Below are positions 1 to 52,464 of a stretch of DNA of 64,000 nt, piece after piece. Location: assembly GCA_964016885.1 (NCBI GenBank), contig OZ024754.1, forward strand, positions 22,010,001 to 22,074,000. The letters run 5' to 3'. Positions within the stretch are counted from its first letter, which is position 1, and each line of letters opens with the position of its first letter. The notes under the pieces were generated by a model. That model worked only from the letters and a program-made list of their open reading frames with translations. It was not told the DNA's origin and searched no databases. This DNA is from Eledone cirrhosa. Lineage: Eukaryota. The translations under genes were made by a program, and so were the position numbers.

Positions 1-2876
1 TGTTTTTTTGTCGTGACACCTACACGATCTCATTTGTTTCGGCCTCGATGGCGCGGCACCAACATAACTTTACATAGAACGGGGTGGTGTGGATCGGGTG
101 GGGGTGGGGGTGGTGGGACGGGGTGTATTTTGTTAGAGATGCCTACTGGCTGGAGTAGGTTTTACTATATATTTAGGTAAGGCGGGTCTTCTCTGTTACT
201 GAGTACCGCCAAAGGTCTCGGTCCAGTGACATTGTCTTGGAGAGGTGTAAGTGTGTGATGTCGGAGTTTATCAGCTCGTCCCAGGTTTTTCTAGGTCTGC
301 CTATTCCGTGACTACCGTCTATCTTTATTGCCCTGCACTTTGTTATACAGCTATCGACTTTCATGCGCATCACGTGTCCATACCAACGTAGCCTTCTCTC
401 GAGTAAACAACATCTGATCCCTCTTATCTCTAATTTATTCCTTAGTTCGTTTATGCTTTGCCGTTCACGTATATTACTGTTACACATCCAGCGGAGCATG
501 CAAGCTTCGTTCCTCTCTAGTCTGCGTATATCCTCTGCACACAATGCCCAGGTCTCACTGCCATGCAGCATTGCTGTTCGTATGCAGGCATCGTACAACC
601 TGCCTTTCATTTTTAGTGAGAACCCTTTAGCAGCTAATAGTGGTATAAGCTCTCTGAACTTTTTCCAACCAGTTCTGACTCTAGCTACAGTACTTTCAGA
701 GCACCCTCCCCCACTGCTGATTTTATCGCCCAGGTAACGGAAGCTGTCCACTATTTCTATAGAACCCTCTGCGCAATTGAAAGAGCTAGTAGTTTGTGGG
801 CACTTGCTGCTACTTATTGCACCAGAGCACCGGCCACATGTAAAATCTATGTTCTTAGTTAGCTTACCTGTGATCCCACTACATCTTTTATGCACCCATA
901 CTTTGCATTTAGGACATAAAATGGAGTTTCTACCTACGCCTTTCCTACACACCGAGCACGACCATTTCCCCGAAGGGACCGCCGCCTTGTTTTCTTTCCT
1001 ACAAACTAGTACTTTGGTCTTAGCCAGGTTAATTTTAAGTCCTTTTGACTCTAGGCCGTGCTTCCATGTTTGGAATTTCTTCTCTAGCTCGGCCATTGAT
1101 TCCGCTATGAGTGTCAGGTCGTCTGCGTATAGGAGTTCCCATGGGCAGCCTGTCTTGAACTCCTCTGTTATAGCCTGAAGGGCAATAATAAATAGTAGTG
1201 GACTGAGAACAGAGCCCTGATGGACGCCGACTTTTACGCTAAACTCTTCACTATATTCGTTGTTAATTCTAACCTTGCTGACTGTTTCTTTATACATGGC
1301 TTGTATAGCCCTCACAAGCCATTCGTCAACGCCTAGTTTTCTAAGAGCCCACCAGATAATGGAGCGGGGGACTCTGTCGAAGGCTTTCTCCAAGTCGACA
1401 AAAGCTAAGTAGAGGGGTTTACCTTTAGCTAGGTACTTCTCCTGTAGTTGTCGTACTATGAAAAGAGCGTCTGTGGTACTTTTGCCTGACACAAACCCGA
1501 ACTGCATTTCATCTAGGTCAATTCTCTCTCTGATTAGTTGCGCTATTACTCTTTCCGTGACCTTCATGACCTGGTCGATTAATTTAATGCCTCTATAGTT
1601 ACTCCTATCTAGGGCGTCTCCTTTACCCTTATAACAGTTAACGATGATGCTGCTATGCCAGTCCTTCGGAACAACCCCGTTCTGTACGACTTGGTTAACT
1701 ATGCGGGTGACCATGGTGTGTCCCACCGTGCCAGATGCCTTCAGCATCTCAGCAACTATTTCCGAAGGCCCAGCCGCCTTACCAGTCTTCATATCCTTGA
1801 TTGCCTTACTTATTATACTCCCCTCGACTAACACTGCTGGTCCCTCTATTGGGTCGATATGGGGGAGACTGCCTTTCTCCCAATTATTCTCCTCATTTAG
1901 AAGCCTTTCATAGTGACACTTCCAAGCTACCTTCTTATCAGCGTCGGTGATGGCAAGTGTGCCATCGTCGTTTAGTACACACTTCTCCCCGACAATATCA
2001 CGGTTTTCCTTGACGCATTGCCTAGCAATCCTGAACACCTCACGTTTTTGGTCATCGCGTTGTAGAACATGCTTGAACTTTCTTTCCTCAGCTTCCCTTC
2101 TTGCTAAGTACACTTGTCTCCTAGCTTCCCTCCTGGCCACTTGATAGTCCTCTCTACTTCCCCCATCCCGCCATACTTTCCAAGCCTGCTTTTTGGCCTT
2201 AATTGACCCCTCCACCTTACTGTTCCACCACCATGTTACTCTCCTCCTGCCTACAGGCCTGCTCCAGCCACAGACCTCGTCTGTCGCCAACAGCAGGTTT
2301 GCTTTCAGAAATTCCCACTCTCCCTCTATATTGTCCGACTCTAAATGTTCTTCCTTACTGTCGAAAGCATCAAGTAATATGCTTTGAAATTTATTCCTGG
2401 CTGTGGGGTCCTTTAGCTTCCATATTTTCCTCCTGAGGATAGTCCTCTTCTGTTGTCGAGTACGTCTCGTCCTGACTATGAGGTCGCTAATTATCAGTCT
2501 ATGTTGGGAGGTGCATTCTTCATGGGGGAGGGATTTAGTGTTAACAACAGACACTCTGTCACGTCTTCTGGTAAGGATATAATCTACCTGGCTTGTGTGT
2601 TCCCCGGATCTATAGGTGATCAGGTGATTGTCACGTTTTTTGAAGTTAGTGTTACAGATAGTTAGGTTATTTGCATCACAGAATTCCAGGATTCTGGAGC
2701 CTTCCTCATTTCTAGTACCAAACCCATAGCCTCCATGGATTTCGTCGTAGCCGTCACAATGTTGTCCAACGTGACCATTTAGGTCGCCTGCGATAATTAT
2801 ATAGTCACTGTCGGATATTTGGGAGGTAGTTAGCATCAGTGTCTCATAGAATCTGTCTTTTATAGTGCCGGGCACT
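1..2876 (-). mobile_element. RTE-clade LINE, 5'-truncated (partial APE endonuclease + RT + PHD-like finger); 3' UTR runs off the window start
   Basis: ORF 173..~2876 has [20 protein letters not shown] (APE), [30 protein letters not shown] (RT) and [10 protein letters not shown]. It ends abruptly in (TA)n at 2877. Confidence 0.92.
173..2876 (-). CDS. Uninterrupted but 5'-truncated EN-RT polyprotein (~900 aa)
   Basis: No internal stops. The N-terminal ~175 aa of the listed 1075-aa ORF come from microsatellite and retrozyme sequence and are not part of the element. Confidence 0.85.
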
Positions 2877-3121: not shown

Positions 3122-3171
3122 CATATATATATATACGTACATACATATATGTATACAGACGTACAGTAGCA

Positions 3172-3217
<46 letters not shown>

Positions 3218-3237
3218 CAGGTACACATACATATACG
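2877..3237. repeat. (TA)n/(TATG)n microsatellite containing an inverted fragment of family A
   Basis: Direct reading; ~3133-3237 is the reverse complement of ~3436-3535. Confidence 0.85.
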
Positions 3238-3265
3238 AACGTTCAACCATCTGGCAGAAGGGTAT

Positions 3266-3308
3266 ACGATGCTGATGATAGCTAACAAGCTTGAAACTAG
3301 TACATCGT
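3266..3308 (+). ncRNA. Type I hammerhead ribozyme (family A)
   Basis: ACGATG-CTGATGA-T AGCT AACA AGCT T-GAAA-CTAG-TA-CATCGT: stem I, core, stem II, palindromic mini stem III, GUA cleavage triplet. Confidence 0.85.
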
Positions 3309-3459
3309 TCCTGTGTCAGTGTTGAACAAAAAGGTGACGTGGTTGCCTTAACACCGTACGGCATAAATTCAGGCTGTTCAGTTTGTTTACAAACGAACAA
3401 AGCGGGCGCTATAATAAGCGTCCGCTAAACTGATACGTACATATATGTATGTGTACCTG

Positions 3460-3495
<36 letters not shown>

Positions 3496-3727
3496 TGCTA
3501 CTGTACGTCTGTATACATATATGTATGTACGTATACATACATACTTACATTTAAGTAAGTGCCGTACTAAGAGTGAGAAATGAAATTTCGTTTTCATTTT
3601 ATTACAACTTGTCGTTCTCGGTACGCCTGGCCGGACTCACTCGATATGCAAATTAGGCTGCTCAGCCGTTAATTTTCATAAGGAAAGTATATACTTTCGA
3701 ACGTTCAACCATCTGGCAGAAGGGTAT

Positions 3728-3770
3728 ACGATGCTGATGATAGCTAACAAGCTTGAAACTAGTACATCGT
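3728..3770 (+). ncRNA. Type I hammerhead ribozyme (family A, second tandem copy)
   Basis: Identical to 3266-3308, 462 nt downstream. Confidence 0.85.
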
Positions 3771-4053
3771 TCCTGTGTCAGTGTTGAACAAAAAGGTGAC
3801 GTGGTTGCCTTAACACCTTACGGCATAAATTCAGGCTGTTCTGTTTGTTTACAAACGAACAAAGCGGGCGCTATAATAAGCGTCCGCTAAACTGATACGT
3901 ACATATATGTATGTGTACCTGTATGTATATATATGCATGCTACTGTGCGTCTGTATACATATATGTATGTACGTATACATACATACTTACATTTAAGTAA
4001 GTGCCGTACTAAGAGTGAGAAATGAAATTTCGTTTTCATTTTATTACAACTTA

Positions 4054-16489: not shown

Positions 16490-17958
16490 CATCATCACCG
16501 TTTTACGTCCGTTCTTCCACGCTAGCATGGGTTAGACGGGTTGTCCTGTTGTGGGCAGTGTCTGGTCGGCTGACCATGCCTTGCTCATACAGGAACTGAT
16601 CTGGCTTGATTTCTACAGCTGGATGCCCTTCCTAACACCAACCTCATTTACAGTGAGTGCTGGGTGCTTTTTCGTGGCGCCTACACGTCCACTTTACAGT
16701 GTGGGCTGGGTGCTTTTTTGCCGTGGCACCTCCACGGCCACCTTGCGGTGGGGGGGGGGGGCATATTGTTTATATGCTTCAGCATGTACCCATGGGAGGT
16801 CGGGTACCCTGTATTACTGCGTGACGCCAGAAGTCACGGTCGTGTGTCATTGACTTTGAGAGGTGTAGTTGGGTAAGGTCGGCTTTTATCACCTCATCCC
16901 AAGTCATCTTGGGTCTCCCCACTCCGCGGTTTCCATCAACTTCTAGTGCTCTGCACCTTTTTATGCAGCTGTCATCCTTCATACGCATCACATGTCCATA
17001 CCAGCGTAACCGCCTCTCCTGCACGCAGCATTTGATTCCTTTTATGCTCAGTCTCTCTCTCAATTCCTTTATGCTTTGTCGTTCACGTATATTACTGTTA
17101 CACATCCATCGGAGCATGCAGGCTTCGTTTCTCTCTAATCTACGTAAGTCTTCCACCTTCAGTGCCCAGGTCTCACTACCATGCAACATCGCTGTTCGGA
17201 TACACGCATCATACAGTCTGCCTTTCATTCTGAGGGAGAAGCCTTTTGCAGCTAGCAGTGGTAGTAGTTCCCTAAACTTCTTCCATCCCGTTCTTACCCT
17301 AGTTATTGTACTTTCTGAGCACCCACCTCCGTTGCTAATTCGGTCACCTAGGTAGCAGAAGCTGTCTACTGTTTCTACAGGGCCCTCCCAGAGATTGGTG
17401 GTACTTGTTTCCTGTGGCTGTTTGCTTGCTGTTTCAGCACAGCTGCTGCATGTGAATCCTACATTCTTAATTAAGCTTCCTGAGATCCCGCTACATCTCT
17501 TGTGTACCCATTGTTTGCATTTGGGGCAGAGAATGGAGTTCCTACCTACACCTTTCCTACATACTGAGCAAGGCCATTTCCCTGAGGGGATCTGGGTTCT
17601 GTTTTCTCGTCTACTTACAAGGACCTTAGTCTTTGTCATGTTGACTTTGAGGCCCTTTCTCTCTAGTCCCTGCTTCCAGGTTTGGAATTTATTCTCTAGT
17701 TCTACCATAGATTCAGCTATGAGTGCGAGGTCATCAGCATACAGGAGTTCCCATGGGCATCCGGTCTTAAACTCCTCCGTTATTGCCTGCAGGACTATGA
17801 TGAACAGGAGAGGGCTAAGAACAGAGCCCTGGTGGACCCCAACCTGTACGCTAAATTCCTCGCTATACTCATTGCCAATCCTAACTTTGCTGACTGCTCC
17901 CCTATACATGGCTTGTACCGCTTTCACAAGCCATTCATCTACTCCTAGTTTTCTAAGA
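16484..17958 (-). mobile_element. RTE-clade LINE, 5'-truncated, distinct subfamily, open ORF 16779..17958
   Basis: LLYADDL, PHD-like finger, [10 protein letters not shown], (ATG)n tail. Confidence 0.92.
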
Positions 17959-19529: not shown

Positions 19530-19787
19530 TATATATGTATATATATATATATATATATATACATACATATATATACATATATGCATATATATACATATAT
19601 ATATGTATGTATATTTATACATATATATATATATGTATGTATATTTATACATATATATATATATGTAAATATAATGTATTTTGCAATACACTTTATGCTT
19701 AATTAAAAGCATTTTGAAGACCGTAAGCTATTGTTTTAAAGTAGTGACAAATTCACTCACTTCGATCTCAGCAAACAGGAGGAGATA

Positions 19788-19835
19788 AGCCGACATGACA
19801 TGTTTCGCTTTTGTTGAAGCTTATCAAGGCCAACT
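19788..19835 (-). ncRNA. Variant HHR with U3-A8 core
   Basis: AGTTGGC-C-TTGATAA-GCTT..AAGC-GAAA-CATG-TC-AT-GTCGGCT; stem I is wobble-rich. Confidence 0.6.
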
Positions 19836-20143
19836 ACCCCGCCCGTCTACTGAGATCAATGATGTTATATTCTTATAGAAATCTAGTAAATAATCAGGAG
19901 CTGATTATGCAGAGCGGTTGTTGGTCAGGCAGAAATTAAAAATTAGAATTGTAGCTCTGAAATAGCAATATATATATGGATGTAAATATAATGTATTTTG
20001 CAATACACTTTATGCTTAATTAAAAGCATTTTAAAGACCGTAAGCTATTGTTTTAAAGTAGTGACAAATTCACTCACTTCGATCTCAGCAAACAGGAGGA
20101 GATAAGCCGACATGACATGTTTCGCTCAGTAGACGGGCGGGGT

Positions 20144-20191
20144 AGTTGGCCTTGATAAGCTTCAACAAAAGCGAAACATGTCATGTCGGCT
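20144..20191 (+). ncRNA. Variant HHR with U3-A8 core (inverted copy)
   Basis: Same motif as 19788-19835 on the plus strand. Confidence 0.6.
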
Positions 20192-20200
20192 TATCTCCTC

Positions 20201-20319
20201 CTTATGGCTAAGTCTCCCAGGTAGGAAATTTTACTCATGTTAGTTAGTTTCACCAGGCCTCTGACATTCAGCAGCAGCACTGGTGTGACTTTTTGGGTGC
20301 GAGTAATGGCTGTCGTTAT

Positions 20320-20873: not shown

Positions 20874-20974
20874 ATATATATATATATATACATATATATA
20901 TACATATATATATATACATATATATATACATATATATATATATACATATATATATATACATACATATATATATA

Positions 20975-21454
20975 TGTATGTATGTACACGTACATACATA
21001 TATGTATACAGACGTACAGTAGTATGTATATATATATATACATATATGTACACATATATATGTACGTATGGATTCACCGAACATTTATTATAATGCTCGT
21101 TGTGTTTGTAAACAAACATCCCGAATTAAGCCGTACAGTGTCTAGCAACCATCGTTGCTCATTTGTTCAACACTGACAAAGGAACGCTGTACTAGTTTCA
21201 AGCTTATTAGCTATCGTCAGCAACGTATACCTTCCTGCCAGATGGTTGAACGTCTGAAAGTATATACTTTCCTTATGTATATTAACGGCTGAGCAGCCTA
21301 ATTTGCATATCAAGTGAGTTAATCGGCCGGGGTACCGAACTAGTACAGTGTTCCTTTGTCAGTATTGAACAAATGAGCAACGTGTACATACTTATATTTA
21401 GGTAACAGCCGTACTAAGAGTGAGAAATGAAATTTCGTTTCATTTTTTCCGTTT
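20975..21454 (-). mobile_element. Family A copy (minus strand) with inverted, internally deleted segment 21340-21454
   Basis: Homology to 3238-4051; HHR at 21184-21226(-) with CTGACGA core and stem I ACGTTG/CAGCGT. Confidence 0.85.
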
Positions 21455-21917: not shown

Positions 21918-21950
<33 letters not shown>

Positions 21951-21951
<1 letters not shown>

Positions 21952-24900
21952 AACGTTTGAATATGTATAATAAAGCCAAAACAATGCAGGTATGGACATA
22001 GAAAAAAGAATGCAATTGCAAAAGATATTGTTGACAATTCGTCTTTTACCTTAGATTTATTTAAATGTCCTTAATTTTCGAGATAATATCTCTTCTTCAG
22101 AGGGAAATAAAGGTCTCAAACCAGCGTTCTAAATATCTTGCCAAGCCATGCTGCCAGGAAATAGTATAGATTATCTGTTCTATCTCTAATGTCAAAGAGT
22201 TAAAATTAGGTGGATAAAGAGTAGTCTCCCTTTAAAAGGGGTTTGTTTAGGTTTTTTTTTATATACATGCCTGTTTAAGTGTGTGGGAGAATGCATGAAG
22301 GTGTGAGTGTGTGTGTGTGCGTGTGAGAAGATAAGTCTATTCGTAAATGTGGGGGATAGGTGTTATCTGGTGTTAGAACTGGTTTTGTGTGTGTATGTGT
22401 GAGAGAGAATAAGTGGAGGTGTAAGCGTGCGTGTGTGTGTATGGGGTGTGTAAATATAGGGCTAGAAGCCCTATCAGGTTATAAATTGGGTGTTGAGTTC
22501 TAGTCTATTATTGATAGGTGGTTGTGTTTTATCTATAATTAGTGCTTCCTTAATTCTAAGATTGCCGAGGTTTCTTTCCTTAGTTTCTATCCTAACTGTT
22601 ATGGTTTTGTCGGTGTTTTTGCATTTAACTAGGTGTTTCTTAAATGAGGAAGCGTTAGTATTGAGGTGTTCTTTTATTCTTATGTGGAGTGGTCTGGTGG
22701 TACTACCTACATAGAAGTTGTTGCATTTGTCACACTCTAGTCTGTATATGACGTAAGCCTGGTGGCATAGGTCTGTGTCGTTGATGGGGCAGTTGGCTAG
22801 TCTGCAGCAGTTGTCATGTCTGGTGGAGTGTCTTTTGGCTAGCTGTCCGCGCAGAGAAGGACCTGAGTGGGCCAGTTGGATATCTAGTCCTTCTCGTCTG
22901 ATGGCTCTGCGGATGGCTGTTGTTGTTTCTTCACTGAAGTGTGGGAGCTTCAGGAAGCAAGTGTTAGTGCCTCGGGTGTGGTGTCCTCTGTTCTTTCTGG
23001 CACGGTTTGTGGTGGATGTAGTGTATCCGTTCAGTTTGAGTACTTCCAGGAAATGTGTGGTGTGTGTGTCTCGGTCTCTGGCGTCGGTGCATTTGTTTTT
23101 GATACGTGCCAGTTCGTTCCTTATGTATCCGAACTTGGCACCGAGTGGGAGGGCCGATCTGAAATGTACGAACAGGTCCCTGCTGGCGGATTTTTTATAG
23201 AAGCAGGTGTGGATGTTGCCTTCCTCTGTTACCCTGAGTTGGAAGTCCAGCAGGGATAGGGATCCGCGGTCATCGGGGTATTCCATGCTGAACTTTATAC
23301 TGGCGTCCATGCTGGAGAATATTGTGTATATTTTATCTGCCTCCTCACGGGATGTAAGGATGAGTATGTCATCTACATATCGGGTGAAGAAGGCATGGGA
23401 ATGGCAGGTGTTGAGGGCTCGGTATTCTAGCTGGTTCATGTAGGTGATGGCCAGCAGGCCCGAAAGGCTGGATCCCATGGGTAATCCTGTTGTCTGTCTG
23501 TATGTGTGGTGGTGGAAGGTGAAGTACGTGTTGTCTACTGTGAAGGACAAAAGCTGGTGTATGTCCGTCGGGTGGAGGCCGTAGCAGTGGATGTTCTCTG
23601 CGACCACGCAGTCCGTCAATAAATCGACAGCTGGGTGAGCGGGGACTGTAGTGTAGAGGGAGACAACGTCGAGGCTAAAAGCGTATTTATTTAGTTTAAG
23701 TTGTTCTGGCTGGAGTTGGTGTAGTCTACGTATGACTTCGTCGGAGCTACTGACATGCCCGGGAAAGGTGGAGAGTAGAGGCTTGAGGACCTGGGAGAGA
23801 AGCCAGGAAATTTTGTATAGGGGTCCTTCTATGCTAGAGACGATGGGTCTTATTTGCGTCTTAGTGCTATTCTTGTGGGTCTTGATGAGGTGGTAGAAAG
23901 TGGGCAGCCTGCTATTTCTAGTGGTGTAGTTGAGCTTAACTTTATTTGGGAGTTGTCTTCTCCTACAGATATCGAACCAGATGGAGTTGGTCTGTTTTTC
24001 GATCTGGGCTGCAGTCATGTCCGGCATCTCTGTGTATAGTTCATTGTCGCTTAGGTGTTCAAAGGCTAGGTTATTGTATGTGGCTTGAGAGATGACGCAA
24101 AACTCTTTACCTTTGTCGGATGGTAAGTATATAAGTTCCTTATTCCGTAGGTTCTTCAGGGCGAGTTGTTGTGTCCTGGAGAGGTTTGGGGCTATCTTCT
24201 TCTGTTTCCGTAAGATGTTAAATACGGAATGTTTTAGTCTCGAGAGTTTTTCTTCAAGCTCGCGGTTGGCAGGCGGTGGCCAGAGTGGGTGATCTAGTTG
24301 GTATATCGGGAATCTGGGTTTGATAGATTCCGTGGTGTTGTTGCCGAGAGTCGATATCCATTTTAGTTGGTATGCAGCCCGACAGAAATTCGTTACTATG
24401 TCGAGCCATAGTTTGTCATCCAGTCTCTGTTTCAATATGAACTTGGGACCCAGGCTGAGGAGGTCTAATTCCTCTCTTCTATAAAAAAGCCGCCAGCAGG
24501 GACCTGTTCGTACATTTCAGATCGGCCCTCCCACTCGGTGCCAAGTTCGGATGCATAAGGAACGAACTGGCACATATCCGGAACAAATGCACCGACGCCA
24601 GAGACCGAGACACACACACACCACACATTTCCTGGAAGTACTCAAACTGAACGGATACACGACATCCACCACAAACCGTGCCAGAAAGAACAGAGAACAC
24701 CACACCCGAGGCACTAACACTTGCTTCCTGAAGCTCCCACACTTCAGTGAAGAAACAACAACAGCCATCCGCAGAGCCATCAGACGAGAAGGACTAGATA
24801 TCCAACTGGCCCACTCAGGTCCTTCTCTTCGCGGACAGCTAGCCAAAAGACACTCCACCAGACATGACAACTGCTGCAGACTAGCCAACTGCCCCATCAA

Positions 24901-25803
24901 CGACACAGACCTATGCCACCAGGCTTACGTCGTATACAGACTAGAGTGTGACAAATGCAACAACTTCTACATAGGTAGCACCACCAGACAACTCCACATA
25001 AGAATAAAAGAACACCTCAATACTAACGCTTCCTCATTTAAGAAACACCTAGTTAAATGCAAAAACACCAACAAAACCATAACAGTTAGGATAGAAACTA
25101 AGGAAAGAAACCTCGGCAATCTTAGAATTAAGGAAGCACTAATTATAGATAAAACACAACCACCAATCAATAATAGACTAGAACTCAACACCCAATTTAT
25201 AACCTGATAGGGCTTCTAGCCCCATATTTACACACCCCATACACACACACGCACGCACACACACACACGCTTACACCTCCACTTATTCTCTCTCACACAT
25301 ACACACACAAAACCAGTTCTAACACCAGATAACACCTATCCCCCACATTTACGAATAGACTTATCTTCTCACACACACACACTCACATACTTACACCTTC
25401 ATGCATTCTCCCACACACTTAAACAGGCATGTATATAAAAAATATATATTAAAAAAACCCTAAACAAACTCCTTTTAAAGGGAGACTACTCTTTATCCAC
25501 CTAATTTTAACTCTTTGACATTAGAGATAGAACAGATACTCTATACTATTTCCTGGCAGCATGGCTTGGCAAGATATTTAGAACGCTGGTTTGAGACCTT
25601 TATTTCCCTCTGAAGAAGAGATATTATCTCGAAAATTAAGGACGTTTAAAATAAATCTAAGGTAAAAGACAAATTGTCAACAATATCTTTTGCAATTGCA
25701 TTCTTTTTTCTATGTCCATACCTGCATTGTTTTGGCTTTATTATACATATTCAAACGTTTATACCTCATTACACAATGCTTCAAGTGAACTATAACCTCC
25801 TCC
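21951..25803 (-). mobile_element. PLE (YVDD type, Penelope/Poseidon-like) with ~1.25-kb inverted duplication
   Basis: Minus-strand ORF, then plus-strand inverted copy 24476-25759 of 21951-23203. Minimal HHR-like motifs at 22067-22105(-) and 25605-25643(+): CCT-CTGAAGA-AGAGAT..ATCTC-GAAA-AT-TA-AGG. Confidence 0.92.
22474..24478 (-). CDS. PLE RT + GIY-YIG endonuclease, 5'-truncated, uninterrupted
   Basis: SDKG, KTHK, IRPIVS, SLDVVSLYT, GLPMGSSLS, RYVDDI, VIYRLECDKC..YVGST.R. Confidence 0.9.
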
Positions 25804-41793: not shown

Positions 41794-43879
41794 TCATCAT
41801 CATCATCATCATCAACGTTTAACGTCCGTGTTCCACGCTTGCATGGGTTTGGACGGGGGTAGTCCCACTTGAGGCAAGAGTGATTGTCTTGCTCGCATAG
41901 GACTGTCTGGCAGGTTTTCTACAGTTGGATGCCCTTCCTAACACCAACCACATTTACAGTGTGGGTCTGGGAGGTTTTTACCGTGTTGCCTACACGGCCA
42001 CATTACAGCGTGGACTGTGTGTTTTTTTGTCGTGACACCTACACGATCTCATTTGTTTCGGCCTCGATGGCGCGGCACCAACATAACTTTACATAGAACG
42101 GGGTGGTGTGGATCGGGTGGGGGTGGTGGGACGGGGTGTATTTGTTAGAGATGCCTACTGGCTGGAGTAGGTTTTACTATATATTTAGGTAAGGCGGGTC
42201 TTCTCTGTTACTGAGTACCGCCAAAGGTCTCGGTCCAGTGACATTGTCTTGGAGAGGTGTAAGTGTGTGATGTCGGAGTTTATCAGCTCGTCCCAGGTTT
42301 TTCTAGGTCTGCCTATTCCGTGACTACCGTCTATCTTTATTGCCCTGCACTTTGTTATACAGCTATCGACTTTCATGCGCATCACGTGTCCATACCAACG
42401 TAGCCTTCTCTCGAGTAAACAACATCTGATCCCTCTTATCTCTAATTTATTCCTTAGTTCGTTTATGCTTTGCCGTTCACGTATATTACTGTTACACATC
42501 CAGCGGAGCATGCAAGCTTCGTTCCTCTCTAGTCTGCGTATATCCTCTGCACACAATGCCCAGGTCTCACTGCCATGCAGCATTGCTGTTCGTATGCAGG
42601 CATCGTACAACCTGCCTTTCATTTTTAGTGAGAACCCTTTAGCAGCTAATAGTGGTATAAGCTCTCTGAACTTTTTCCAACCAGTTCTGACTCTAGCTAC
42701 AGTACTTTCAGAGCACCCTCCCCCACTGCTGATTTTATCGCCCAGGTAACGGAAGCTGTCCACTATTTCTATAGAACCCTCTGCGCAATTGAAAGAGCTA
42801 GTAGTTTGTGGGCACTTGCTGCTACTTATTGCACCAGAGCACCGGCCACATGTAAAATCTATGTTCTTAGTTAGCCTACCTGTGATCCCACTACATCTTT
42901 TATGCACCCATACTTTGCATTTAGGACATAAAATGGAGTTTCTACCTACGCCTTTCCTACACACCGAGCACGACCATTTCCCAGAAGGGACCGCCGCCTT
43001 GTTTTCTTTCCTACAAACTAGTACTTTGGTCTTAGCCAGGTTAATTTTAAGTCCTTTTGACTCTAGGCCGTGCTTCCATGTTTGGAATTTCTTCTCTAGC
43101 TCGGCCATTGATTCCGCTATGAGTGTCAGGTCGTCTGCGTATAGGAGTTCCCATGGGCAGCCTGTCTTGAACTCCTCTGTTATGGCCTGAAGGGCAATAA
43201 TAAATAGTAGTGGACTGAGAACAGAGCCCTGATGGACGCCGACTTTTACGCTAAACTCTTCACTATATTCGTTGTTAATTCTAACCTTGCTGACTGTTTC
43301 TTTATACATGGCTTGTATAGCCCTCACAAGCCATTCGTCAACGCCTAGTTTTCTAAGAGCCCACCAGATAATGGAGCGGGGGACTCTGTCGAAGGCTTTC
43401 TCCAAGTCGACAAAAGCTAAGTAGAGGGGTTTACCTTTAGCTAGGTACTTCTCTTGTAGTTGTCGTACTATGAAAAGAGCGTCTGTGGTACTTTTGCCTG
43501 ACACAAACCCGAACTGCATTTCATCTAGGTCAATTCTCTCTCTGATTAGTTGCGCTATTACTCTTTCCGTGACCTTCATGACCTGGTCGATTAATTTAAT
43601 GCCTCTATAGTTACTCCTATCTAGGGCGTCTCCTTTACCCTTATAACAGTTAACGATGATGCTGCTATGCCAGTCCTTCGGAACAACCCCGTTTTGTACG
43701 ACTTGGTTAACTATGCGGGTGACCATGGTGTGTCCCACCGTGCCAGATGCCTTCAGCATCTCAGCAACTATTTCCGAAGGCCCAGCCGCCTTACCAGTCT
43801 TCATATCCTTGATTGCCTTACTTATTATACTCCCCTCGACTAACACTGCTGGTCCCTCTATTGGGTCGATATGGGGGAG
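41794..43879 (-). mobile_element. RTE-clade LINE, 5'-truncated, nearly identical to 1-1868
   Basis: Open ORF 42185..~43877; one visible aa change (GKL vs GRL); (ATG)n tail. Confidence 0.93.
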
Positions 43880-44118
43880 ACATATACATATATACATACA
43901 TATACATACATACACACACATAAAAATACATAACTAAATATACATATATACACATACACACACACACACACGCACGTGTATACACACACACATATACATA
44001 TGTCCGCATATATACCCCTCCGTTCACACATACATGCATACACACACACACATACACACATACATCTATATATATATACACATATAAAGAGAGAGGCATA
44101 CACACACACACATACACA

Positions 44119-44395
44119 TACTTTCAGATATTCAATCATCTGACAGGAAGGTACACGATGCTGACGATAGCTAATAAGCTTGAAACTAGTACATCGTTCC
44201 TGTGTCAATGTTGAACAAAAAGGTAACGGTGGTTGCTAGACACTGTACGGCGTAATTCGGGCTGTTTGTTTACAAACAAACCGAACATTATAATAAATGT
44301 TCGGTAAACCCATACGTACATATATATATATATGTGTGCATGTATGTATATATAAATACATACTACTGTACGTCTGTATACATATATGTATGTAT
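44119..44395 (+). mobile_element. Family A partial copy with intact HHR at 44155-44197
   Basis: ACGATG-CTGACGA-TAGCT AATA AGCTT-GAAA-CTAG-TA-CATCGT. Confidence 0.85.
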
Positions 44396-44792
44396 ATATA
44401 CATATATTTATATATACATATATTTATATATACTTATATGTATATATACATATATGTGCATATATATATATATGTATATATACATATATAAATAAATGTA
44501 TATATATAAATATATATATATATATGCGGGTGTATGCGGGTGCTCATGCTTATGCATATACTTGTATGTAGCTGTATGTTAACGGAACCCTGCCCAACTG
44601 TGAGTGATAACATTTCTTATTTTTCATTCTTATTTTTATTTTTATTCTTATTTTTATGTTTACTTTTATTTTACTCTTTTCTTATTTTACTCCTTTTACT
44701 TTACTCTTTAAACTCCTCCCAACTTATGGTATCCCCACATATATTCTTGTTTTGGCTTTGTCAATGCTTGTATACTATGTATTTACTCTTTA

Positions 44793-48934: not shown

Positions 48935-49687
48935 TTATGTACACGTACATACATATATGTATACAGACGTACAGTAGTATGTATATGCATACATACATGC
49001 ACACCTATATATATGTACGTATGGGTTTACCGAACATTTATTATAATGTTCGGTGTGTTTCTAAACAAACAGCCCGAATTATTAGCTGTACAATTATTAA
49101 CATTATAATAAATGTTCGGAAAACCCATACGTACATATATATATGTGTGCATGTATATACATACTACTGTACGTCCGTATACATATATGTATATACGTGT
49201 ACATACTTATATTTAGGTATCAGCCGTACTAAGAGTGAGAAATGAAATTTCATTTTTTCCATTTATCATTCACGGTACGCCCGGCCGACTAACTCACTCG
49301 ATATGCAAATTAGGCTACTCAGCCGTTAATATGCATAAGGAAAGTATATACTTTCAAACGTTCACTCATCTAACAGGAAGGTATACGGTGTTGATGACAG
49401 CTAATAAGCTAGAAACTAGATCATCGTTCCTTTGTCAGTGTTGAACAAAATGGCAACGATGGTTGCCGAACTCTGTACGGCTTAATTCGGGCTGTTTGTT
49501 TACAAACAAACCGAACATTATAATAAATGTTCGGTAAACCCATACGTACATATATATATGTGTGCATGTATGTATATATATACATACAACTGTACGTCTG
49601 TATACATATATGTATGTACGTATACATACTTGCATTTAAGTATCAGCCGTACGAAGAGTGAGAAATGAAATTTCATTTTTTTCATCT
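48935..49687 (+). mobile_element. Family A partial tandem with inverted 5' segment (48935-49082); HHR degenerate
   Basis: The TACTAAGAGTGAGAAATGAAATTTC segment occurs twice (~49227, ~49650). HHR at 49385-49427 has a TTGATGA core and GAAACTAGAT. Confidence 0.82.
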
Positions 49688-50233: not shown

Positions 50234-50388
50234 GTATGTACACGTACATACATATATGTATACAGACGTACAGTAGTATGTATATATATATATACATACA
50301 TGCACACATATATATATGTACGTATGGATTCACCGAACATTTATTATAATGTGTACATACTTATATTTAAGTAACAGCCGTACTAAGA
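50234..50388 (-). mobile_element. Family A small rearranged fragment
   Basis: CAGACGTACAGTAG..GGATTCACCGAACATTTATTATAATG, then inverted GTGTACATACTTATATTTAAGTAACAGCCGTACTAAG. Confidence 0.75.
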
Positions 50389-51746: not shown

Positions 51747-52410
51747 AACGCTGTACTAGTTTCAAGCTTATTAGCTTGAAACTAGTACAGCGTTCCTTTG
51801 TCCGTGTTGAACAAACGAGCAACGATGGTGGCTGGACACTACGGCTTAATACGGGATGTTTGTTTACAAACACACCGAGCATTATAATAAATGTTCGGTG
51901 AATCCATACGTACATATATATATATGTGTGCATGTATGTATATATATATATACATACTACTGTACGTCTGTATACATATATGTATGTACGTGTACATACT
52001 TATATTTAAGTAATAGCCGTACTAAGAGTGGGTAAATGAAATTTCGTTTCATTTTTTTCGTTTATCGTTTTCTGTGCACCCGGCCGATTAACCCACTCGA
52101 TATGTAAATTGGGCTACTCAGCCGTTAATATGCATAAGGTAAGTATATACGTTCAACAATCTGGCAGGAAGGTATACGTTGCTGACGATAGCTAATAAGC
52201 TTGAAACTAGTACAGCGTTCCTTTGTCAGTGTTGAACAAACGAGCAACGATGGTTGCTGGACACTACGGCTTAATACGGGATGTTTGTTTACAAACACAC
52301 CGAGCATTATAATAAATGTTCGGTGAATCCATACGTACATATATATATATGTGTGCATGTATGTATATATATACATACTACTGTACTTCTGTATACATAT
52401 ATGTATGTAC

Positions 52411-52416
<6 letters not shown>
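51747..52416 (+). mobile_element. Family A partial tandem (425-bp period) starting with a fold-back in HHR stem II; intact HHR at 52176-52218
   Basis: GAAACTAGTACAGCG at 51778 and 52203; 22-bp perfect inverted repeat 51747-51768/51773-51794. Confidence 0.87.

Positions 52417-52464
<48 letters not shown>

What the first reader, a model, noticed from the sequence alone, without database searches (positions are those of the whole stretch)
3133..4051. Family A: dispersed non-coding retrozyme-like element (425-462-nt HHR-delimited units) at six loci
Seen: a protein-free unit with a minimal type I HHR occurs at 3133-4051, 20975-21454, 44119-44395, 48935-49687, 50234-50388 and 51747-52416. Copies lie on both strands, in or beside (TA)n, usually as partial tandems with an inverted 5' piece. 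Tandem HHRs predict monomers of 462 nt (cleavage after 3302 and 3764) and 425 nt. Established: non-LTR retrozymes in other metazoans are HHR-containing tandem repeats that give circular RNAs and are thought to be mobilised by PLEs, and partial tandems with inverted 5' ends are PLE insertion hallmarks. Inference: this is a high-copy, possibly undescribed retrozyme family parasitising the co-resident PLEs. It is the best candidate for the hidden system.
Basis: partly seen in the sequence, partly recalled or inferred. Interest (0 to 1): 0.88.

Follow-up and report, generated by a model that had tools for sequence, protein, structure and literature searches.

The report
Self-cutting RNA repeat riding Penelope transposons
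A 420-540-base protein-free repeat with a hammerhead ribozyme motif has been copied tens of thousands of times into TA microsatellites of this animal genome with the exact end pattern that Penelope-like retrotransposons leave, and it carries what is likely its own small-nuclear-RNA-type promoter, which makes it a good test case for how such 'retrozymes' are transcribed and spread.

Summary
The element is real and is a non-LTR retrozyme family. Its 34-nt hammerhead core has 23,085 exact matches in the 3.0-Gb genome (reversed control 0). Units are 419-538 nt, in arrays of up to 8, and none of 135 mapped arms runs into a PLE reading frame. New here: (1) 114 of 135 arm 3' ends fall at two sites about 57-60 nt apart, none at the ribozyme cut, and 32 of 32 classifiable head-to-head pairs have one long and one short end. 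That is the PLE 'tail' made by two-site internal priming. (2) Each unit carries a motif matching the host's U6/U6atac/MRP promoters plus the TCAG-TATA spacing of its U1/U2 promoters, predicting a start 46 nt before the cut. Corrections: the ribozyme is not the 'minimal' type; one listed locus has none, one is degenerate, and the 425-nt locus has only half of its first one. Cleavage, circles, promoter activity and the helper PLE are untested or not found. The scan noted a similar PLE-patterned unit, without a ribozyme, in another genome.

The parts
3236..4051 (+). Direct arm, 1.8 units, 5'-truncated, ending at the long 3' end next to (TA)n
3133..3242 (-). Inverted arm (reverse complement of 3435-3534), joined head to head, ending near the short 3' end
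3260..3312 (+). Type I hammerhead motif 1; predicted cut after 3302
3303..3764 (+). Predicted 462-nt monomer, cut to cut; highly self-paired, 5' end pairs with 3' end
3435..3540 (+). Internal TA-rich long hairpin of variable length
3542..3557 (+). 6-bp hairpin whose loop holds the short 3' end of insertions (after 3549-3552)
3551..3610 (+). The 57-60-nt 'tail' between the short and the long 3' end (long end after 3608-3610; 4051 in the second unit)
3644..3718 (+). Promoter-like module: octamer-type motif at 3646, TCAG at 3662, TATA at 3688, predicted start at 3718 (activity inferred)
3722..3774 (+). Type I hammerhead motif 2; predicted cut after 3764; weak Rfam HH9 match (19.3 bits, E 0.021, below cut-off)
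20967..21338 (-). Older-subfamily arm with an intact motif (cut after 21190), short end
21350..21454 (+). Inverted arm of the same insertion, long end
44118..44407 (+). Single truncated arm with an intact motif (cut after 44191), short-type end
48935..49104 (-). Inverted arm, short end
49104..49687 (+). Direct arm with a degenerate motif at 49385-49427
50234..50388 (.). Small head-to-head remnant (TA-rich part and part of the tail); no ribozyme
51747..52423 (+). Arm of 1.5 units with an inverted stub at 51747-51778; first motif only half, second intact (cut after 52212); short end

Best explanation
It is a protein-free hammerhead-bearing tandem repeat (a non-LTR retrozyme) whose insertions end at two fixed sites as Penelope-like elements (PLEs) do, so it is likely copied by a borrowed PLE enzyme from an RNA that is predicted to start at its own snRNA-type promoter, cut itself and close into a circle. 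Steps: (1) inferred: the module at 3646-3718 starts transcription about 46 nt before the ribozyme, most likely by Pol II in snRNA mode, and reads through neighbouring units. (2) Predicted: ribozymes cut, probably as dimers through the palindromic helix III, releasing a cut-to-cut monomer that contains the whole promoter sequence; a host ligase would close it (as shown for other retrozymes). (3) Shown at DNA level, inferred as enzymology: a PLE RT-endonuclease nicks (TA)n on both strands and primes at two internal RNA sites 57-60 nt apart, one per strand. (4) Inferred: each RT runs a variable distance, often more than once round, and the two cDNAs join head to head, giving the long-end/short-end inverted arrays. 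Any arm longer than about one unit restores promoter plus ribozyme, so copies can be sources again.
For: Copy number and dispersal. 114 of 135 arm ends at two sites (uniform expectation 9%); 0 of 135 at the cut; 32 of 32 classifiable inverted pairs long+short, p 2e-10 (one pair is a duplicate); TATA beside 98 of 114 ends. Autonomous PLEs of the same genome show the same two ends in (TA)n, and the purified anole PLE primes at two adjacent internal sites on both target strands (PMC11167929). 5' starts are uniform round the unit (KS p 0.30), 112 of 135 arms cross the cut site and 78 exceed one unit. Catalytic core intact in 163 of 175 motifs, helix III palindromic in 171; 15 of 28 pairs show two-sided changes, mostly against a second family; 13 of 119 pairs covary within the family. 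Promoter: matrix from five host Pol III promoters scores the unit 20.6 bits, background 2.5e-6 per site; TCAG at -56 to -58 in 9 of 9 U1/U2 upstream regions (several near-identical paralogues) and 0 of 5 Pol III ones, with the same TCAG-TATA gap (26 nt) in the unit; same geometry in three diverged sister families.
Against: No RNA evidence of any kind was obtained. The end pattern fits an uncut linear multimer as well as a circle, and ribozyme cutting was dispensable for the anole PLE in vitro. The U.U pair at 10.1-11.1 replaces a G-C that PMC4209133 calls highly conserved, and 8 of 9 Xenopus retrozymes did not cleave in vitro. No PLE sharing sequence with the unit was found in 1.65 Mb fetched. 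The promoter module is a hybrid: octamer-TATA spacing is 42 nt against 46-48 in the host Pol III genes, U1/U2 lack the octamer, TCAG is only four letters, and these bases also pair in the predicted RNA fold, which could explain their conservation. The second family (fam2) lacks the octamer match (6.8 bits).
Confidence: 0.6

Rival explanations
1. Same PLE-driven insertion, but the template is an uncut linear read-through multimer; the ribozyme only trims 5' leaders or is rarely active, and circles are a by-product or absent.
For: No arm end and only 3 of 135 starts lie at the cut; unprocessed RNA was the main substrate of the anole PLE; U.U at 10.1-11.1 may slow cleavage; the same-template test gave no answer.
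Against: Core kept in 163 of 175 copies across subfamilies 81% alike; helices that pair the monomer's two ends are conserved; both arms can be multimeric, up to 8 units, and units in one locus are 99.5% alike, which a circle explains simply.
Confidence: 0.25
2. The unit is only the pseudo-LTR of an autonomous PLE not sampled here; the copies are 5'-truncated PLE insertions.
For: It has every PLE end feature; Xenopus retrozymes resemble PLE pLTRs; only 73 loci and the window were mapped, of many thousands.
Against: 0 of 135 arms continue into an ORF; pure arrays of up to 8 units; shared upstream flanks are unrelated repeats; the ORF-linked ribozymes seen in this genome have other sequences.
Confidence: 0.06
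3. The module is a Pol III (U6-type) promoter, or is no promoter at all and transcription comes from host read-through, as the 2020 review proposes for retrozymes.
For: The octamer-type motif matches only the host Pol III genes; the youngest subfamily has no T run above 4, and host U6 terminators are T7-T9; PMC7761336 states retrozymes seem to lack promoters.
Against: 31 of 63 monomers hold T6-T7 runs yet form arrays; spacing and TCAG match U1/U2; four diverged families keep the geometry while the rest of the sequence differs.
Confidence: 0.2
4. A satellite or MITE-like repeat spread at DNA level (unequal crossover, extrachromosomal circles), with no RNA step.
For: Tandem arrays with near-identical units.
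Against: Fixed asymmetric 3' ends, random 5' truncation, head-to-head arms and RNA-structure covariation are not made by those processes.
Confidence: 0.02

Closest known systems
Non-LTR retrozymes of coral, mussel and axolotl (Cervera & de la Pena 2020, PMC7229834) and of vertebrates (Li, Clavereau & Pollet 2026, bioRxiv 10.64898/2026.07.22.740005)
   Same: Protein-free tandem units of a few hundred bases, low GC, one type I hammerhead per unit, self-paired monomer, co-occurrence with PLEs.
   Different: Units of 419-538 nt (above the 150-450 of the first paper, inside the 51-972 of the second); U.U at 10.1-11.1; mostly dispersed short head-to-head insertions in (TA)n. In the parts I read, neither paper maps a two-end tail or a promoter.
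EN+ PLE insertions and their tail (Craig et al. 2021, PMC8557442; Frangieh et al. 2024, PMC11167929); non-autonomous Chlamys elements such as MRC1
   Same: Partial tandems, inverted 5'-truncated arm, tail at one end only, (TA)n targets, 3' ends internal to the RNA and not at the ribozyme cut.
   Different: No ORF; tail 57-60 nt rather than 30-40; hammerhead of canonical helix sizes rather than the minimal PLE type; no parent PLE found.
Newt satellite 2 and schistosome satellite (known to me second-hand from PMC2220036; the originals were not held)
   Same: Hammerhead tandem repeats transcribed from internal promoters: snRNA-type Pol II in the newt, Pol III in the schistosome.
   Different: Here the module joins a motif of the host's Pol III genes to the spacing of its U1/U2 genes; activity untested.

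Membership tests
Non-LTR retrozyme | Type I hammerhead motif in each unit | tested here: met
   (core intact in 163 of 175)
Non-LTR retrozyme | Head-to-tail units of a few hundred bases, at least two with whole motifs | tested here: met
   63 cut-to-cut monomers of 419-538 nt; arms of 2-8 motifs in 28 of 112 runs
Non-LTR retrozyme | No protein-coding capacity; GC below 50% | tested here: met
   longest ATG frame in dimers median 66 aa, maximum 137; GC 36.5%; no PLE frame attached
Non-LTR retrozyme | No LTR, primer-binding site or polypurine tract | not tested
   no LTR layout is seen in the 73 loci, but PBS and PPT were not searched
Non-LTR retrozyme | Highly self-paired monomer | tested here: met
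   z = -9.8, 68% paired as a circle; covariation
Non-LTR retrozyme | Self-cleavage as monomer or dimer | not testable with these tools
   needs a transcription assay
Non-LTR retrozyme | Accumulation as circular RNA | not testable with these tools
   no run on record as RNA was offered
Element mobilised by EN+ PLE machinery | Inverted 5'-truncated arm and tail at one end only | tested here: met
   44 head-to-head pairs; 32 long+short, 0 long+long, 0 short+short, 12 with an unclassified end
Element mobilised by EN+ PLE machinery | Sequence shared with the pLTR of an autonomous PLE | tested here: inconclusive
   none in 1.65 Mb fetched, which covers only part of the PLE families
Autonomous PLE (unit as pLTR) | Attached RT-GIY-YIG reading frame | tested here: not met
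   0 of 135 arms
Minimal PLE hammerhead (PMC4209133) | Helix II 7-8 bp, helix I 4-5 bp with poorly defined loop 1 | tested here: not met
   helix I 6 bp with a conserved internal loop and further helices, helix II 4 bp
Canonical type I hammerhead (PMC4209133) | Helix I 6 bp, helix II 4 bp, short palindromic helix III | tested here: met
Canonical type I hammerhead (PMC4209133) | G10.1-C11.1 pair | tested here: not met
   U.U in 173 of 175 motifs; so it is a variant motif
snRNA-type promoter | Host proximal elements and TATA at host spacing | tested here: inconclusive
   octamer as in 5 Pol III genes but 4-6 nt nearer TATA; TCAG-TATA-start spacing as in 9 U1/U2 regions
snRNA-type promoter | Drives transcription from the predicted start | not testable with these tools
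   needs 5' mapping or a reporter

The most novel reading that the evidence does not exclude
A self-sufficient circular-RNA retroposon: each unit carries a captured hybrid snRNA promoter, the ribozyme removes the leader so that the circle keeps its own promoter, and a PLE dimer primes at two sites on that circle and rolls round it in both target directions. The genome then holds a whole superfamily (at least four families) that shares this promoter while swapping ribozymes, and the insertion anatomy is direct genomic evidence that PLE enzymes mobilise retrozymes.
Probability: 0.4. Interest if true: 0.72.

Novelty: new member of a known kind. Interest (0 to 1): 0.58.

Why it matters
That PLEs mobilise animal retrozymes has rested on co-occurrence and pLTR similarity. 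Here thousands of young copies carry the two-site priming signature recently shown for a purified PLE, with both sites mapped to the base, so the RNA template and the expected product for an in vitro test are defined. The promoter-like module addresses a second open point, since a 2020 review says retrozymes seem to lack promoters; it would also explain why a ribozyme and tandem units are needed. A 460-nt RNA that a PLE enzyme inserts at TA repeats is also a compact model cargo.

Tried and rejected
Rfam scan of the whole window: the 150 of 316 rows shown are microRNA models on TA repeats, all below cut-off; only narrow scans gave weak HH9 matches. PLE fragments near copies (L089, L091, L102, L112 and others) looked like a parent but are a separate family with its own end, parted by (TA)n. 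An apparent PLE-family A chimera in L118 is an insertion into an older PLE with a 9-bp target duplication. Test whether both arms come from one RNA molecule: inconclusive (shared private changes 3 of 18 against 2 of 41 in controls; divergence comparison p 0.06). Helper search by GIY-YIG hits, long frames and a profile: no shared sequence. No RNA holder listed; contigs of runs of unknown kind X1, X2, X6 cover the unit, X4 and X5 gave none, and nothing on expression follows. My first structure string had two outer helices off by one (corrected), and the energy check at the end was mis-set and is not used. Long end as a Pol III terminator: rejected, as it lies 6-9 nt past the T run and autonomous PLEs show the same ends. 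The scan's own index held nothing for this genome or sequence.

Full report
Observation. The repeat is present at all six loci. At 3133-4051 it consists of an inverted arm (3133-3242) joined head to head with 1.8 direct units (3236-4051) inside (TA)n. A structural scan finds type I hammerhead motifs with cuts after 3302, 3764, 44191, 52212 and 21190 (minus strand). The motif near 49400 is degenerate, the first motif at 51747-51790 is only half, and 50234-50388 has none.

Copy number. The window lies in a 3.0-Gb genome, G000. A 34-nt core pattern has 11,864 + 11,221 exact matches, and the reversed control has none. A looser pattern gives 34,997, of which 9,220 belong to a second family. In 59 evenly placed 10-kb stretches, 5 hold the family (0.21% of bases in its non-TA parts, 3 cores), so six loci in 64 kb is a rich window. 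The 40 scored candidates for 3236-3440 all came back at 100% listed identity, on eleven contigs, so one subfamily is very young.

Sample. I fetched 18 loci chosen from those best hits and 55 loci covering the first 100 listed core matches on contig 1. The second set is consecutive but favours copies with an intact core. These 73 loci and the window gave 175 cores and 63 cut-to-cut monomers of 419-538 nt, in two main groups about 81% alike. GC is 36.5%, and units within a locus are 99.5% alike against 96.4% between loci of one group.

No attached enzyme. PLE fragments are common nearby, but none of 135 arms continues into a PLE frame. Shared upstream flanks are other repeats, and the two cases that looked linked dissolved.

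Ribozyme. Helix I has 6 bp, followed by a conserved 3x1 internal loop and three more helices; helix II has 4 bp; helix III is a 2-bp palindrome. On 21 distinct sequences, 94.7% of cells pair and 15 of 28 pairs change on both sides (0 of 500 shuffles; slid controls 32-42%). Most two-sided changes come from the two rows of the second family, so they are few events. Within family A, 13 of 119 pairs covary. By PMC4209133 (parts 1-2 of 4 read; one of two supplement files searched) these are canonical helix sizes, not the minimal PLE form, but 10.1-11.1 is U.U in 173 of 175 copies. The palindrome is kept in 171 of 175 and stays a palindrome with other letters in the second family, which points to dimeric cutting (inference). 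Rfam gives only a weak HH9 match.

Ends. Of 135 arms, 62 end at a long site (window 3608-3610), 52 at a short site (3549-3552, in the loop of a 6-bp hairpin) and 21 elsewhere; in the consecutive set alone it is 77 of 95. None ends within 10 nt of the ribozyme cut. 5' starts are uniform round the unit. Of 44 head-to-head pairs, 32 are long+short, none long+long or short+short, and 12 have an unclassified end; one pair is a local duplicate, and very short inverted arms were missed by the pairing rule. 112 arms cross the cut site and 78 exceed one unit. Craig et al. describe inverted arms and a one-sided tail for PLEs (PMC8557442, passages). Frangieh et al. show that the tail lies between two internal priming sites used on both target strands, and that ribozyme cutting was not needed in vitro (PMC11167929, parts 1-2 of 4). 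The autonomous PLE at 21950-25801 of this window and at least four other PLE families show the same two ends in (TA)n, with tails of roughly 35-90 nt read by eye. PLE mobilisation is therefore well supported; the helper is not identified.

Promoter. A profile search found diverged sister families (L294, L176; L229 by its ribozyme) that keep an octamer-type word and a TATA 42-43 nt apart upstream of different ribozymes. The host's three distinct U6 promoters, its best U6atac hit and its RNase MRP gene carry the same word at -76 to -78 with TATA at -30; two other U6 hits, one interrupted cluster copy and seven weaker U6atac hits lack it at that place and were left out. A matrix from these five scores family A at 20.6 bits (leave-one-out 19.4-20.2; background 2.5e-6 per site; antisense best 8.9). 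All 9 U1/U2 upstream regions compared have TCAG at -56 to -58, none of the 5 Pol III ones does, and family A has TCAG 16 nt after the octamer, TATA 26 nt later and a CA step 56 nt after TCAG, at 3718. TCAG is kept in 60 of 63 monomers. T6-T7 runs in 31 of 63 monomers favour Pol II. This is sequence evidence only, and the same bases also pair in the RNA fold. PMC7761336 (passages) says retrozymes seem to lack promoters; PMC2220036 (passages) cites an snRNA-type Pol II promoter in newt satellite 2 and a Pol III one in the schistosome repeat, whose original papers were not held.

Mechanism. Shown: anatomy, copy number, structure conservation, two fixed ends, absence of an ORF. Inferred: transcription from 3718, dimeric cutting, circle formation, two-site priming by a PLE dimer, rolling-circle extension. 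The uncut linear multimer remains the main rival, because the ends cannot tell it from a circle.

Known relatives and novelty. It meets every retrozyme feature I could test (PMC7229834, passages and sections 13-14; supplement unreadable; Li et al. 2026, parts 1-3 of 5; its supplements are closed). Searches listed no paper on this family, on a retrozyme tail signature or on a U6/U1-matched retrozyme promoter, judged from titles and abstract starts plus the passages named; the unread supplements, Dfam and Repbase could hold it. The host lineage was not determined; my use of 'octopus' in searches is a guess from genome size and TA content. Verdict: a new member of a known kind, with two features that make open questions about the class testable.

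Noticed in passing
L091:5634-8001; L126:91-2540: Second retrozyme family, 310-nt units, same hammerhead layout with compensatory stems, 9,220 exact cores, arrays over 20 units, also long and short ends in (TA)n.
   Followed up: partly
window 19651-20202 (minus strand); L117, L131, L234: Third tandem non-coding family sharing the end region of the 310-nt family (74%); it seems to carry a hammerhead with a U3-A8 core.
   Followed up: partly
L294:2421-2680; L229:5750-6250; L176:9250-10000: Diverged sister families with the same promoter-like geometry but different ribozyme stems; L294 is 70% like family A.
   Followed up: partly
window 21950-25801: Autonomous-type PLE (RT and GIY-YIG, 680-aa open frame at 22474-24516, minus strand) with an inverted arm, own hammerhead-like motif and a tail of about 45 nt; copies 94-97% alike.
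   Followed up: partly
window 9585, 12148, 15918, 16279, 21745, 44797, 52619, 53082: Hammerhead motifs of several other PLE families; one (52619 type) has a 60-nt tail like family A and is a helper candidate on that ground only.
   Followed up: partly
L263, L264, L272, L274; L234, L257: Two PLE families with long open frames carry U3-A8 core hammerheads.
   Followed up: no
L347, L348, L353: U6atac-like copies without promoter sit directly after (TA)n or TA-rich repeats, as if retroposed into microsatellites.
   Followed up: no
L096, L109, L090; window 51765: Some head-to-head junctions lie exactly on palindromes of the unit, suggesting the two cDNAs anneal there.
   Followed up: partly
window 173-2850, 16779-17950, 42185-43880: RTE-like LINE frames with a PHD finger after the RT domain (for the first).
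   Followed up: no
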